This document shows, piece after piece, positions 1 through 3,000 of a stretch of DNA of 3,571 nt. A program made the position numbers. Location: IMG/VR virus record IMGVR_UViG_2537561710_000021. One strand, written 5' to 3'. This DNA is from a virus. Its lineage: Duplodnaviria; Heunggongvirae; Uroviricota; Caudoviricetes. Position 1 is the stretch's first letter. Each line of letters begins with the position of its first letter.

Positions 1-3000
1 CTCACTACAGCTTATCCAACCATCCGGAGTTACCGGATAGTTGGTTGACGTTTCCGAGATTTCCCGAAAATTATTGGTTGACGAACCCTTATTTTCCCGA
101 AAGTTTCCAGCCTGAAGCATGGCGGCGCGGTGACACCAGATAATCCAGCCAAGCGCCATATCCCATACCATGTAATCTCTATCGCCATTTTTTGCTCTGC
201 GGCGATCTACAGATTCTCCGAAACGCTTCTCCATAAATAATTCATAGGCTGCTCGTTCATCCGATACTGCTGCCAGTGATGCCAGCGCAATCCGTGCCAG
301 CTCTTCCGCTTCTTCTGCTGGAAGCACAACGTTGCTACCCGGTCCGTATGTTTCGCGCCAATGCTGGATTGTCAGCAGTCGATCTTTGGTAATAGTGGTC
401 ATAGCTATTTCACCTTAATCTCAACATTTCGCAGCTTTAGCTCTACTGGCATGTCTGACTTTCCTGTTAATGCTAATGCGAGATTTTCTGGAGTAATGAG
501 AGCAGTTATTGTTTTCCCCATCGCCAGACGAATAATCATTCGTATTTCGCGATCGTCACATGCTCCTGGTCGAACAATTGATATTTGTCCGTTCATCTCA
601 CTCTCCTTTGATGCGAATGCCAGCGACGCGTAATGCGTGTTCTAGGTCAATCAGGTAAAGCCAACTGCCATTTTCTTTAGGTATCATGACATGTCGCTCA
701 TCTGCATTTATCGGGTGTCCATATCGAAGGTCGTAGCGAGTCGGTAATTGAACTTCCCGCGCTTCCAGTTCAGCAATACGCTTGCTCCCATCAGAGATAA
801 CGCCTTCGTAATACTCACGCTGCTCGTTGAGTTGTGATTTTGCTTCTTCCAGTCCATCCAGCAAATCAGCGATAATATCCGCTTCCCGATGACGGATGTG
901 ACGCTTAAACGCAGCAAGAGCCGCATCACAATCCCGTTCAGCATTTGGGCTGTCCGGGGTAGCCTGATACCACGCCAGCGTCGATTGATAGTTTTGTGCT
1001 GCCTCACGCAGTGCCTGATAGTCAATCTTGCCCACTGGCTGCCTCCTTTGCCGGGATTTCTAACTTTTGAGTGGTTGTATCAAATTCAAACAACTTAACC
1101 ACGTCATCAAACAGGACATAATCACCATCAGGATCTTCAGTCATATCAGCGCCACAATCCTGACCGCACGAGTCGCAACCTCCCATATCAAGCTCGTATC
1201 GCTTCAGGTTCGCGATATTTGATAAATTCAGCGCCAGTATAGCCAGATCATTAACCTCGTCTGCGATATACCCTGCACCATGTCCATACATTTCAATGCG
1301 GGATATGATTTCTTCTACACGTTGTTTTGTGATCGTCATTTTTCTCTTCACTCCGATATACAAGGATTACTACACCCCCTCTGCTGATTGCGCGAGCTGG
1401 ATCCCCTGGTTCCATGCCGTCAATTCCGAAGGCTTCGAAAAATGCATCCATTGCCTTCTGGCGTTGCTCCTGCTTACGGCGTTTATTCCATTTTTTCATG
1501 AACAACAGTGACAGCCATCGTCCGCTGCAGAACATGATGTAGAAATAACCAAGGAGCGCTAGGCCGGTGTTCAGGGCTGTATCGATCGTTATCGTGGTGT
1601 TGATGTTCACTTCACACCTCTCTGTTTGTTGATAAGTTCAATATCCTGCTGGCAACTGGCGCAAGCTCTGCATCCACGAACAGCCAGGCGTCGCCGCTCA
1701 TCTATCGGATCGCCACACTCGCAACAATGAGTAGCAGATGGGGCATTACTATCGGATTTGTATTTTTGCAGGGAGAGATTGCGCTGCAATTCTTCGATTT
1801 CAGCGGCGTTGTCGATGATATCTGCCATTTTCCTTTCCTTCAGGCATGAAAAAAGGAGCCGAAGCTCCTTTGGTTTTAGAATTCGAATTGCCTTGCCCGC
1901 AGGCTTTTCAGCATTGGTCTGGCCCGCTGAACTACGAAACTCGACTGGTCAAGCCGTGCCGCCTCTCTCAGTAGCACATCTCTGTTCTTCGTCACCATGT
2001 AGATGGTCTCAAACGCAATGTCATACAGCTTGTTCGTGTATGAGGAGTTCAGCTCTTTCATGATCGGATACAGGTGTTTGCTGAGGTCCTGGGCTTTTTC
2101 CATCCAGAGTTGCATGTAGCAGAGGAGGATGATTTCCTCGTCTGTGAATTGTTGCTGTGGTTCTGCTTGTGCCGACTGCATGTTGCGAAGTTTCTTTTCG
2201 CACTCGATGAAGTATCTGCGTATCTGTCGGCCTTTTTCGTTACGCTCTACCATCGCCGTTTCTTTGGCTGTATCGAGGGTAAGGTGGTAGTCTTTTTTCC
2301 CTCGCCCATAACCTATTTCCCGTTTCTGGGAAATAGCTATATAGTCCTGATTTTCAACGAATCCGTACTCTTCAATACGTTCTGTAATCCACGATGCAAA
2401 GCGTTTACCTACTCCAAGAAAAGTATGTAAATCACGGGCATTAACGAGAAGAGTGGTTTCGTTGGCGATAGTGCCGTTGAATACGGGGATGAGTTGACTG
2501 GTCATGATGACCTCCTTATTTGTTTAGTTTATAACCGCCAGTTAGTAGCTGGCGGTCGGGTGTCAACTGAGCCAAATAAGAAGCTCTGGGCATATTCCCC
2601 TTGCGGGTGTTGTATTACGCCTCTCCACCCGACCTTTGTACGGATGTAACTATGCCAAATTGCAGGCATAAAAAAGCCGCAAAGCTATCGGGTGCGGAGA
2701 CCGCTTATTTGTTCAGTGCGGTCAGTATGCGATAGCTCTGGAGGATTTGTCAATCAGCGGAATATTGATGAACGGGTAACGGTAAATGCCTCATCCAGAA
2801 AATTAACGCAAATTCGCATCGCAAACTTGCGTTAATTATCTGAAATATCAAGTTAAATCCCCTTAAATGTTTGGGGCACTATTGGGGCAAAATGTGGTTG
2901 TTTGGGGCATATTTGGGGCAAAAAAGAACGTATAAAGAACGGTGTAAAATTGATTTCTTCATGGTCAAAATGAGGTGTAACAGATTGAAAAATATATGCT

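What the first reader, a model, noticed from the sequence alone, without database searches (positions are those of the whole stretch)
1293..1610. Small membrane protein with polybasic juxtamembrane tract overlapping both neighbours
One hydrophobic helix followed by KKWNKRRKQEQRQK and a soluble tail resembles small phage membrane effectors such as Kil-like division inhibitors, exclusion proteins or holin-like proteins. Its start overlaps the TraR-like stop and its last 47 nt overlap the next gene, so the true C-terminus or the downstream start is in doubt.
Basis: inference. Interest (0 to 1): 0.45.

Follow-up and report, generated by a model that had tools for sequence, protein, structure and literature searches.

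The report
Uncharacterised DUF4752 phage membrane-anchored protein gene
The ORF is a real, conserved prophage gene of the uncharacterised DUF4752 family, most likely a small protein anchored in the inner membrane by one helix; it is already catalogued, its function is untested, and its odd overlapping end is a by-product of phage gene shuffling.

Summary
Window 1293-1610 (-) encodes 105 aa. Its GTG start overlaps the TGA of the upstream TraR/Orf73-like gene (GTGA). Its last 47 nt overlap the next gene, which starts at ATG 1339.

It is a full-length DUF4752 protein (PF15944, E 1e-39; phrog_667, unknown function). The exact sequence is RefSeq WP_032167955.1. Purifying selection acts in this frame (dN/dS 0.24, above 1 in the other two same-strand frames).

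An N-terminal hydrophobic helix followed by a polybasic tract is conserved across the family. N-flank charge averages -1.4 and the tract +5.6, which fits an N-out/C-in single-pass membrane protein with a roughly 40-aa cytoplasmic domain. The hydrophobicity of this particular copy is marginal on two of three scales.

The doubt about the C-terminus is resolved. Homology to prophage Sp5 breaks at the downstream ATG, so residues 92-105 are an unconserved read-through. Relatives are 88, 94, 100, 105 or 119 aa long, and the tail has AlphaFold pLDDT below 50.

The gene is an optional single-gene cassette in early accessory regions of temperate enterobacterial phages. It is not in a lysis cassette, and no holin, Kil, exclusion or defence family matches. 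Function is unknown and the library holds no literature on it. My best guess is a non-essential, membrane-anchored factor acting on the host during lytic growth. Ordinary; low interest.

The parts
1293..1610 (-). DUF4752 family gene, 105 aa plus stop; exact protein is RefSeq WP_032167955.1
   Evidence: ORF list. PF15944 E 1.3e-39, residues 7-90 against profile positions 1-84 of 84. phrog_667 E 1e-42. Exact look-up. dN/dS 0.24 in frame.
1617..1622 (-). GAGAGG Shine-Dalgarno-like sequence 6 nt upstream of the GTG start, inside the 3' end of the TraR-like gene
   Evidence: Read from the sequence. Inference only; not tested.
1607..1610 (-). GTGA start/stop overlap with the upstream TraR-like gene, an arrangement typical of translational coupling
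   Evidence: RefSeq annotates the same start in Sakai Sp5 (ECs_1249) and in FORC_069. Relatives with an ATG start begin at the same aligned position.
1521..1580 (-). Residues about 11-30 (TALNTGLALLGYFYIMFCSG): predicted transmembrane helix. R31 and W32 would mark the cytoplasmic interface.
   Evidence: Hydrophobicity scales. AF2 helix 3-60 with pLDDT 83-89 over residues 11-40. Family-wide apolar run of 13-20 residues and charge asymmetry. The boundaries are inferred.
1455..1496 (-). Residues 39-52, KKWNKRRKQEQRQK: polybasic juxtamembrane tract
   Evidence: Net charge +7 over residues 38-52 here; family mean +5.6.
1347..1454 (-). Residues 53-88: conserved small C-terminal domain, an amphipathic helix (AMDAFFEAF) followed by a Gly-containing beta-hairpin (ISRGGVVILVYR)
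   Evidence: Conservation profile. Lowest dN/dS, 0.11. AF2 strands 72-75 and 81-84 at pLDDT about 60. The same domain occurs with other N-termini in a few relatives.
1293..1337 (-). Residues 92-105 plus stop: unconserved read-through tail lying inside the next gene
   Evidence: Homology to Sp5 ends at the downstream ATG. Tail lengths in relatives are 88, 94, 100, 105 and 119 aa. The Pfam and PHROG profiles end at residues 90-93. pLDDT below 50.
1335..1339 (.). Mosaic (recombination) junction at the start codon of the downstream gene
   Evidence: Three-way DNA alignment: about 98% identity up to AAAAATGA, then unrelated sequence. The window matches Sp5 at 99.7% only from 1336 onward.
1022..1339 (-). 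Downstream gene, 105 aa, phrog_3126 (unknown function); starts within the DUF4752 3' end
   Evidence: phrog_3126 E 2.5e-66, profile positions 1-105 of 105. It is the partner gene in 58 of 80 related loci. RefSeq annotation in FORC_069 agrees.
1607..1828 (-). Upstream gene, 73 aa: TraR/DksA C4 zinc-finger protein of the lambda Orf73 type, with an N-terminal DxxDxA motif (MADIIDNA)
   Evidence: PF01258 E 1.5e-7. phrog_54. TIGR02419. Function of the homologues comes from PMC9239242.
1849..1871 (-). Hairpin AAAGGAGC-UUCG-GCUCCUUU followed by a U run, between the Ant stop codon and the TraR-like start; terminator-like
   Evidence: RNA fold. The pattern scanner did not list it. Any function is inferred.

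Best explanation
SHOWN.
- The ORF is a genuine gene under purifying selection for a DUF4752 (PF15944 / phrog_667) protein.
- It lies at the attR-proximal end of a lambdoid, Stx-phage-like prophage inserted in wrbA.
- It sits between a lambda-Orf73-type TraR gene and a phrog_3126 / Ea22-type gene, and overlaps both.
- The conserved protein ends at about residue 91. Residues 92-105 are an unconserved read-through caused by a mosaic junction at the next gene's ATG.
- The family is small: 62 clusters at 50% identity among 1.84 billion proteins. The relatives that carry names come from Enterobacterales hosts and their temperate phages.
- The gene behaves as an optional single-gene cassette in early accessory regions. 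In the six phage and prophage genomes examined these were the exo-xis region, the region beyond attP, the nin region and a P1-like accessory cluster.

INFERRED ARCHITECTURE (about 0.75).
- It is a single-pass inner-membrane protein with its short acidic N-tail outside.
- The transmembrane helix spans roughly residues 11-30, with R31/W32 at the interface.
- A polybasic helix (39-52) lies on the cytoplasmic face.
- A cytoplasmic helix-plus-hairpin domain of about 40 aa follows.

INFERRED MECHANISM (about 0.3).
- After induction or infection it would be made from the antiterminated early transcript, translationally coupled to the TraR-like protein that reprograms host RNA polymerase.
- It would insert into the inner membrane without a signal peptide.
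- Through its conserved transmembrane motif (GLxxxG[YW]x[YF]I...W) and its cytoplasmic domain it would bind a membrane-associated host target.
- The effect would be a non-essential change to envelope physiology (division, transport or a membrane-bound defence) in favour of phage growth.
For: Identity: PF15944 at 134.5 bits against a cut-off of 27; phrog_667; exact RefSeq protein WP_032167955.1.

Translation of this frame: 6 of 6 differences from Sp5 are at third codon positions. dN/dS is 0.24, against 1.2 and 1.5 in the other two frames. The N-terminal 14 codons are also constrained (0.28), which supports the GTG start.

Tail: the homology break at the downstream ATG; variable tail lengths, including a stop-loss form of 119 aa; pLDDT below 50.

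Membrane architecture:
- AF2 predicts a single continuous helix over residues 3-60 with nothing to pack against.
- Wimley-White octanol sum is -11.7 kcal/mol here. Among the 30 full-length relatives it is negative in all but one, down to -13.
- The Eisenberg mean hydrophobicity is 0.7-0.84 with a low hydrophobic moment over residues 15-27.
- N-flank net charge is never positive (mean -1.4), while the following tract averages +5.6 across 46 sequences.
- Aromatic residues Y22, Y24, W32 and W41 are conserved.
- A partial cluster member was once named 'membrane protein' by NCBI.

Early, lytic-phase expression:
- The gene is co-oriented and overlapping with an Orf73-type gene.
- In the circular Stx1 phage it lies downstream of int and attP in the pL direction.
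- It lies in the nin region in BTP1, and between erf/abc2 and xis in HK106.
- Lambda Orf73 is expressed from pL early in lytic growth (PMC9239242).
- A terminator-like hairpin precedes the TraR gene, and the scan found no promoter-like site between that hairpin and the ORF.

Cassette behaviour:
- The Stx1 phage record annotates it as segment 'f' between repeats c and e.
- There are at least 3 types of upstream neighbour and at least 2 types of downstream neighbour among loci of 79% identity or more.
- About 10% of complete E. coli genomes carry a close copy.
Against: No topology predictor or experiment was available.

Two of three scales are below the usual transmembrane thresholds for this copy: Kyte-Doolittle 1.36 against 1.6, and a positive Hessa sum of +2.9.

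The hydrophobic stretch contains R31. In most relatives it contains K28, and the apolar run is only 13-16 residues.

Conserved transmembrane positions do not cluster significantly on one helix face (about 500 of 5000 shuffles reach the observed value), so a specific helix-helix interface is not demonstrated.

The C-terminal domain is modelled only at pLDDT about 60 and matches no known fold.

No target, phenotype or expression data exist. No paper in the library mentions DUF4752, PF15944, ECs1249 or the accessions searched.

Expression in lysogens is not excluded.
Confidence: 0.6

Rival explanations
1. It is a superinfection-exclusion or lysogenic-conversion membrane protein, expressed from the prophage in lysogens. 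It would act like Sie, Imm or HK97 gp15-type proteins, blocking DNA entry of incoming phages through contacts in the inner membrane.
For: It is a small predicted membrane protein. In Sp5-type prophages it lies in the region next to attR, together with a hok/mok-like gene. It has a patchy, cassette-like distribution.
Against: No similarity to any exclusion or defence family was found. Almost all of the protein would be cytoplasmic, with only 8-14 residues outside. The gene overlaps an Orf73-type lytic gene. A terminator-like hairpin lies upstream, and the scan found no promoter-like site between that hairpin and the ORF. In BTP1 and HK106 it sits inside the pR or pL early operons.
Confidence: 0.12
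2. It is a lysis-related protein: a holin, antiholin, pinholin or phiX174 E-like single-gene lysis factor that permeabilises the membrane or blocks wall synthesis.
For: It has one N-terminal hydrophobic helix followed by a highly charged, basic C-terminal part. This superficially resembles class III holins or phiX174 E; that comparison rests on my own knowledge of those proteins.
Against: It was not in a lysis cassette in any of the contexts examined. Its neighbours are TraR-like, Ea22-like, DUF551, nin or recombination genes. No holin profile matched at E up to 0.1, and the PHROG category is 'unknown function'. It is carried by about 10% of E. coli genomes in early operons, where premature lysis would be harmful (the last point is inference).
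Confidence: 0.04
3. It is not a membrane protein. The hydrophobic N-terminal helix would be the core of a soluble homo-oligomer (a helical bundle) or a binding helix for a soluble partner. The basic tract would bind nucleic acid or an acidic protein surface.
For: Kyte-Doolittle is 1.36, below 1.6, and the Hessa sum is positive for this copy. Charged residues (K28, R31 or E31) lie inside the hydrophobic region in most relatives. AF2 gives one long helix that could equally form a coiled coil. A few relatives carry the C-terminal domain with a non-hydrophobic N-terminus.
Against: The negative-then-positive charge asymmetry around the apolar run is family-wide. The Wimley-White octanol sum is strongly negative in nearly all full-length members. 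The core has a low hydrophobic moment, meaning it is apolar all round rather than amphipathic. Aromatic residues flank the segment.
Confidence: 0.18
4. It is a chance ORF or a mis-annotated frame, and the real coding sequence lies on the other strand or in another frame.
For: Several ORFs of 35-71 aa overlap it on the + strand. The start codon is GTG.
Against: dN/dS is 0.24 in this frame only, among the three same-strand frames tested. There are 38 variable third positions against 17 and 10 at first and second positions. The Pfam E-value is 1e-39. The family is conserved down to 22% identity with the same architecture.
Confidence: 0.01

Closest known systems
Pfam DUF4752 (PF15944) / PHROG phrog_667; for example ECs_1249 of prophage Sp5 (VT2-Sakai), ORF b36 of the Stx1-converting phage NC_004913, gp45 of Salmonella phage BTP1, gp31 of HK106
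   Same: It is a full-length member. The core is 97% identical to the Sp5 protein. The start, the N-terminal hydrophobic helix, the polybasic tract and the C-terminal domain are all the same.
   Different: Only the last 14 residues differ: 105 aa here against 94 aa in Sp5, because a different gene follows. The family has no assigned function.
Lambda exo-xis region small ORFs (orf60a, orf63, orf61, orf73, ea22, ea8.5)
   Same: Same kind of locus. It is a non-essential small gene in the pL-direction accessory block, lying between an Orf73-type TraR gene and Ea22-type genes.
   Different: DUF4752 did not appear among the lambda exo-xis ORFs listed in the papers read; I did not search the lambda genome directly. 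Those proteins, as described in the papers read, are not described as membrane proteins. In the Stx1 phage, DUF4752 is the extra segment 'f' inserted between the orf73-like and ea22-like genes.
Small single-pass membrane effectors of phages (phiX174 E, SPO1 gp56, T4 Imm/Sp, HK97 gp15) and the division inhibitors Kil/KilR/DicB
   Same: Small size. For some of these, a single N-terminal membrane helix does the work, with a basic or dispensable soluble part. They are early or accessory genes. This comparison rests on my own knowledge.
   Different: No sequence or fold similarity was detected. Lambda Kil and DicB have no membrane helix. The exclusion proteins carry their functional part outside the cytoplasm, whereas here about 70 of 90 residues would be cytoplasmic. 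No phenotype is known.
Holins (class I-III, pinholins)
   Same: At least one hydrophobic helix and a charged C-terminus.
   Different: The gene is not next to an endolysin or spanin gene in any context seen, and there is no holin profile match.

Membership tests
DUF4752 (PF15944) | Score above Pfam's gathering threshold, covering the whole profile | tested here: met
   134.5 bits against a cut-off of 27; residues 7-90 match profile positions 1-84 of 84.
DUF4752 (PF15944) | Family architecture: N-terminal apolar helix, basic tract, then the FYDAF...PG...G.L.I..R domain | tested here: met
   Alignments with relatives at 22-97% identity; charge and hydrophobicity tables.
PHROG phrog_667 | Profile match over the full length | tested here: met
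   E 1.2e-42; residues 1-93 match profile positions 1-93 of 94; category 'unknown function'.
Single-pass N-out/C-in inner-membrane protein (topology class) | A hydrophobic segment long and apolar enough to span the membrane | tested here: inconclusive
   Wimley-White octanol -11.7 kcal/mol (favourable), but Kyte-Doolittle 1.36 (below 1.6) and Hessa sum +2.9. Most relatives score higher, with Kyte-Doolittle 1.4-2.5. No TMHMM or DeepTMHMM was available.
Single-pass N-out/C-in inner-membrane protein (topology class) | Positive-inside charge bias, and no basic n-region or cleavage site of a Sec signal peptide | tested here: met
   N-flank charge -1 (family mean -1.4, never positive). Following 15 residues +7 (family mean +5.6).
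Single-pass N-out/C-in inner-membrane protein (topology class) | Membrane localisation and orientation shown experimentally | not testable with these tools
   Needs fractionation and PhoA/GFP fusions.
Holins | Gene lies in the lysis cassette beside endolysin and spanin genes and is expressed late | tested here: not met
   Neighbours here are the TraR-like gene, phrog_3126 and an Ea22-like gene. In other phages the contexts are exo-xis, beyond attP, or nin.
Holins | Match to a holin family profile | tested here: not met
   Only DUF4752 is reported by Pfam at E up to 0.1. The PHROG hits have unknown function.
Kil-type division inhibitors (lambda Kil, Rac KilR, DicB) | Sequence relationship to a known inhibitor | tested here: not met
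   No such Pfam, PHROG or NCBIfam hit.
Kil-type division inhibitors (lambda Kil, Rac KilR, DicB) | Expression causes filamentation through FtsZ, MinC or divisome binding | not testable with these tools
   Needs inducible expression and microscopy.
Superinfection exclusion / anti-phage defence proteins | Match to a known exclusion or defence protein model | tested here: not met
   PADLOC gives no hit for this gene or its neighbours. Pfam and PHROGs give none.
Superinfection exclusion / anti-phage defence proteins | Expressed in the lysogen from its own promoter | tested here: inconclusive
   The scan found no promoter-like site between the hairpin at 1849-1871 and the ORF. A consensus scan is weak evidence, and no expression data were found.
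Hok/Gef type I toxins | Hok/Gef profile match and a mok/sok-type arrangement | tested here: not met
   No PF01848 hit. The hok/mok-like gene of these prophages is a separate gene further along.

The most novel reading that the evidence does not exclude
DUF4752 proteins could be a new family of phage single-pass membrane effectors. Made early in lytic growth alongside the Orf73/TraR-type transcription reprogrammer, they would use a conserved transmembrane motif and a small cytoplasmic domain to inhibit a specific host inner-membrane machine. Candidates are the divisome, a transporter used by competing phages, or a membrane-embedded defence effector.
Probability: 0.25. Interest if true: 0.5.

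Novelty: already known. Interest (0 to 1): 0.2.

Why it matters
It matters little as a discovery. The exact protein is already in RefSeq under a named domain-of-unknown-function family. About one in ten complete E. coli genomes carries a close copy, including the Stx2 prophage Sp5 of O157:H7 Sakai.

Two modest points are useful.
- The puzzling 47-nt overlap is explained by a mosaic junction at the next gene's start codon. C-terminal length differences in this family (88-119 aa) should therefore not be read as functional variants.
- DUF4752 is a widespread, completely untested, probably membrane-anchored early gene of Shiga-toxin and other temperate enterobacterial phages. It sits next to the recently characterised Orf73/TraR-type gene and is a cheap candidate for over-expression and deletion studies of host takeover.

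Tried and rejected
- **NCBIfam and PADLOC:** no hit for the ORF.
- **Profile search of PDB sequences:** only non-significant hits (E about 0.3) to cytochrome c oxidase subunit 6C, itself a single-pass membrane subunit. Not used as evidence.
- **Two AlphaFold runs (28 and 46 sequences):** both gave the same long helix plus a low-confidence hairpin, with mean pLDDT 68.
- **Foldseek against BFVD and PDB:** nothing at E up to 0.001. The model is too simple for fold matching.
- **Hit to a 1098-aa protein in the representative search:** this is a TPR-repeat protein, so the match is a spurious repeat-pattern match.
- **Conserved face on the transmembrane helix:** not significant.
- **Codon-position test within the 47-nt overlap:** only 7 variable sites, so uninformative.
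- **Label 'EaE protein' under a tblastn hit in phage BIS08P22:** this belongs to the neighbouring gene. The DUF4752 ORF there is simply unannotated.
- **Phi24B antirepressor paper:** it concerns a different ant gene.
- **Literature searches** for DUF4752, PF15944, phrog_667, ECs1249 and protein accessions: zero papers.
- **Fixed linkage to the TraR-like gene:** rejected. Upstream neighbours fall into at least three unrelated types even among close relatives, and into others in BTP1, HK106 and D6.
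Full report
**What is in the window.** All genes between 1 and 2505 lie on the minus strand. Reading from right to left:
- an AntA/P22_AR-type antirepressor (1876-2505);
- a 73-aa TraR/DksA zinc-finger protein (1607-1828), with the DxxDxA N-terminus of lambda Orf73-type proteins;
- the ORF in question (1293-1610);
- a 105-aa phrog_3126 protein (1022-1339);
- an Ead/Ea22-like protein (598-1035);
- a 63-aa phrog_1222 protein (405-596);
- the start of a gene that runs off the window (1-402; its product resembles the DUF551-domain proteins annotated at this position in related prophages, but was not scanned).

To the right lie a truncated 5' end of wrbA (3030-3092, minus strand, MAKVLVLYYSMYGHIETM...) and the host gene ymdF (3398-3571). 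The window is therefore the attR-proximal end of a lambdoid prophage inserted in wrbA. Bases 1336-3571 are 99.7% identical to the right end of the Stx2 prophage Sp5 of O157:H7 Sakai.

**The observation.**
- The ORF starts at GTG 1610. This overlaps the TGA of the TraR-like gene as GTGA, and a GAGAGG lies 6 nt upstream.
- Residues 39-52 are KKWNKRRKQEQRQK.
- The last 47 nt overlap the next gene if that gene starts at ATG 1339.

Both boundaries have independent support. RefSeq annotates the same GTG start in Sakai (ECs_1249) and in other strains. In strain FORC_069 it annotates an identical pair of genes with the same 47-nt overlap. The phrog_3126 profile covers the downstream protein from residue 1. 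Relatives of the ORF that use ATG start at the same aligned position.

**Is it a real gene?** Yes.
- It is a full-length match to Pfam DUF4752 (PF15944, 134.5 bits against a cut-off of 27) and to phrog_667.
- The exact protein is RefSeq WP_032167955.1.
- All six nucleotide differences from Sp5 fall on third codon positions.
- Among 13 distinct alleles from 80 viral contigs, variable sites are 17/10/38 by codon position. dN/dS is 0.24 in this frame against 1.2 and 1.5 in the other two frames. The N-terminal 14 codons (0.28), the hydrophobic segment (0.18) and the C-terminal domain (0.11) are each constrained.
- The basic tract gave a ratio above 1, but on very few substitutions.

**The C-terminus.** A three-way DNA alignment shows about 98% identity between the window, Sp5 and strain OkiPb01680 up to the sequence AAAAATGA. 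After that there is no similarity. The break is at the start codon of the downstream gene.
- In Sp5 an Ea22-like gene follows, and DUF4752 ends after 94 aa (...EEKNEQD).
- Here a phrog_3126 gene follows, and the frame runs on to 105 aa (...EEKNDDHKTTCRRNHIPH).
- Among 80 related loci the protein is 88, 94, 100, 105 or 119 aa long, depending on what follows. The 119-aa form arises from a single change in the stop codon.
- The overlap with the next gene is 14, 32, 47 or 89 nt.
- The Pfam and PHROG profiles end at residues 90-93, and AlphaFold gives pLDDT below 50 from residue 89-90 onward.

So both starts are right. The conserved protein ends near residue 91, and the tail is a by-product of mosaic recombination at a gene boundary.

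**Architecture.** AlphaFold2 was run with two alignments (28 and 46 sequences).
- Both predict one continuous helix over residues 3-60, with pLDDT 83-89 over residues 11-40.
- A low-confidence hairpin follows (72-75 and 81-84, pLDDT about 60), then a disordered tail.
- The best 19-residue window in this copy (LLGYFYIMFCSGRWLSLLF) has a Kyte-Doolittle mean of 1.36 and a position-independent Hessa sum of +2.9 kcal/mol. Both are below the usual membrane-helix criteria.
- Its Wimley-White octanol sum is -11.7 kcal/mol, which is favourable.
- Residues 15-27 are uniformly apolar, with Eisenberg mean hydrophobicity 0.7-0.84 and a low moment.

The family picture is clearer.
- In 29 of the 30 full-length relatives (22-70% identity) there is an apolar run of 10-20 residues (most often 16). 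Kyte-Doolittle values mostly fall between 1.4 and 2.5, and the octanol sum is negative.
- Across 46 sequences the N-flank is never positively charged (mean -1.4).
- The 15 residues after the hydrophobic region average +5.6.
- Conserved positions give the motif GLxxxG[YW]x[YF]Ixx[K]x..W, followed by [KR]xWxKRRK. The C-terminal domain has the pattern A.N.FYDAF.L..I.PG....V.T.G.L.I..R.

This pattern fits a single-pass protein with a very short acidic N-tail outside, a membrane helix at about residues 11-30 in this copy, a basic helix at the cytoplasmic face, and a small cytoplasmic domain. I could not run a dedicated topology predictor, so I put this at about 0.75. The main rival is a soluble oligomer whose core is the hydrophobic helix.

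**Distribution and context.**
- A profile search of 1.84 billion representative proteins found only 62 clusters.
- The relatives that carry names are from Escherichia, Shigella and Salmonella. Phage matches extend to Klebsiella and Erwinia phages.
- About 10% of complete E. coli genomes (524 of 5426) carry a close copy, always annotated 'DUF4752 family protein'.

The gene's neighbours are not fixed.
- Among loci with 79% or more protein identity, the upstream gene is a TraR-like gene, a 96-aa protein or a 90-aa protein. The downstream gene is phrog_3126 or one of several Ea22-like genes.
- In the circular Stx1-converting phage NC_004913 the gene lies just beyond attP, downstream of int in the leftward early direction. 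The record's authors marked it as segment 'f' between repeats 'c' and 'e'.
- A second TraR-plus-Ea22 module in the exo-xis region of that same phage has a short segment 'd' instead.
- In Salmonella phage BTP1 the gene is in the nin region after the replication genes.
- In HK106 it lies between erf/abc2 and xis-int.
- In the P1-like phage D6 it is in an accessory cluster with an Ea22-like gene.

The common denominator is the non-essential, delayed-early accessory regions of temperate phages. It was never a lysis cassette.

**Likely timing.** Here the gene overlaps an Orf73-type TraR gene. Lambda Orf73 is made from pL early in lytic growth and redirects host RNA polymerase (PMC9239242). A hairpin with a UUCG loop and a U run lies between the antirepressor stop codon and the TraR start (1849-1871). 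The consensus scan found no promoter-like site between that hairpin and the ORF. This suggests, but does not show, that the gene depends on antiterminated read-through after induction rather than on expression in the lysogen.

**Function.** Nothing is known.
- No paper in the searchable library mentions the family, its accessions or the Sakai locus tag.
- No defence, holin, Kil, Hok or exclusion family matches.
- No fold or PDB sequence match is significant.

My best-supported proposal is a non-essential, membrane-anchored early protein that acts on a membrane-associated host target during lytic development. I rate the mechanism at about 0.3. Alternatives are:
- a lysogen-expressed exclusion factor (about 0.12);
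- a soluble oligomer (about 0.18);
- a lysis protein (about 0.04).

**Verdict.** The 'doubtful C-terminus' is explained. The gene is an already catalogued member of an uncharacterised family, so novelty is low and interest modest.

Noticed in passing
window 2546-2634 (-): A match above the curated threshold to the Rfam family sRNA-Xcc1 (RF02221): 69 bits against a gathering score of 53, E 1e-11, full model 1-87. It lies in the leader upstream of the antirepressor gene (1876-2505, minus strand). It may be a regulatory RNA element of the Ant gene.
   Followed up: no
window 2871-2920 (+): Four exact copies of TTGGGGCA in two 25-nt direct repeats, where 0.1 copies are expected by chance. They lie 110-220 nt from the truncated wrbA start (3030-3092). 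They are candidate integrase arm-type or other protein-binding sites near attR.
   Followed up: partly
window 2796-2842: A 22-nt inverted repeat, 86% complementary with a 3-nt spacer (CAGAAAATTAACGCAAATTCGC / GCAAACTTGCGTTAATTATCTG). It lies just upstream of the best promoter-like site on the minus strand (2753..2724, 10 of 12 matches). It looks like an operator for the Ant transcription unit.
   Followed up: no
window 1849-1871 (-): A hairpin AAAGGAGC-UUCG-GCUCCUUU followed by a U run, starting 5 nt after the Ant stop codon and ending about 20 nt before the TraR-like start. It is terminator-like and would separate Ant from the TraR-DUF4752 genes unless transcription is antiterminated. The pattern scanner did not list it.
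   Followed up: partly
window 3030-3092 (-) and 3398-3571 (+): A truncated 5' end of wrbA (MAKVLVLYYSMYGHIETMKH*), followed by the host gene ymdF. This is the attR junction of a wrbA-integrated, Stx-phage-like prophage.
   Followed up: yes
L002/L088 (E. coli OkiPb01680, NZ_AP042506.1 1212069-1218500) and L083 (NC_004913.3): In OkiPb01680 only about 6.7 kb lies between wrbA and ymdF, in the order int-xis-...-Ea22-DUF4752-TraR-Ant. This looks like a prophage remnant. It could have formed by recombination between the two TraR/Ea22 modules that the Stx1 phage record marks as repeats c and e on either side of attP.
   Followed up: partly
P0175: A 104-aa protein joins an Ead/Ea22-like N-terminus to the DUF4752 C-terminal domain (Pfam hits to both). 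It may be an in-frame recombinant from this shuffling hot spot, or it may be a pseudogene product.
   Followed up: no
window 41-105 (+): Two imperfect 32-nt direct repeats (TTGGTTGACG...TTTCCCGAAA, 75% identity) lie inside the 3' part of the gene at 1-402 (minus strand). They encode a short repeated peptide...NFRE(N/I)....
   Followed up: no
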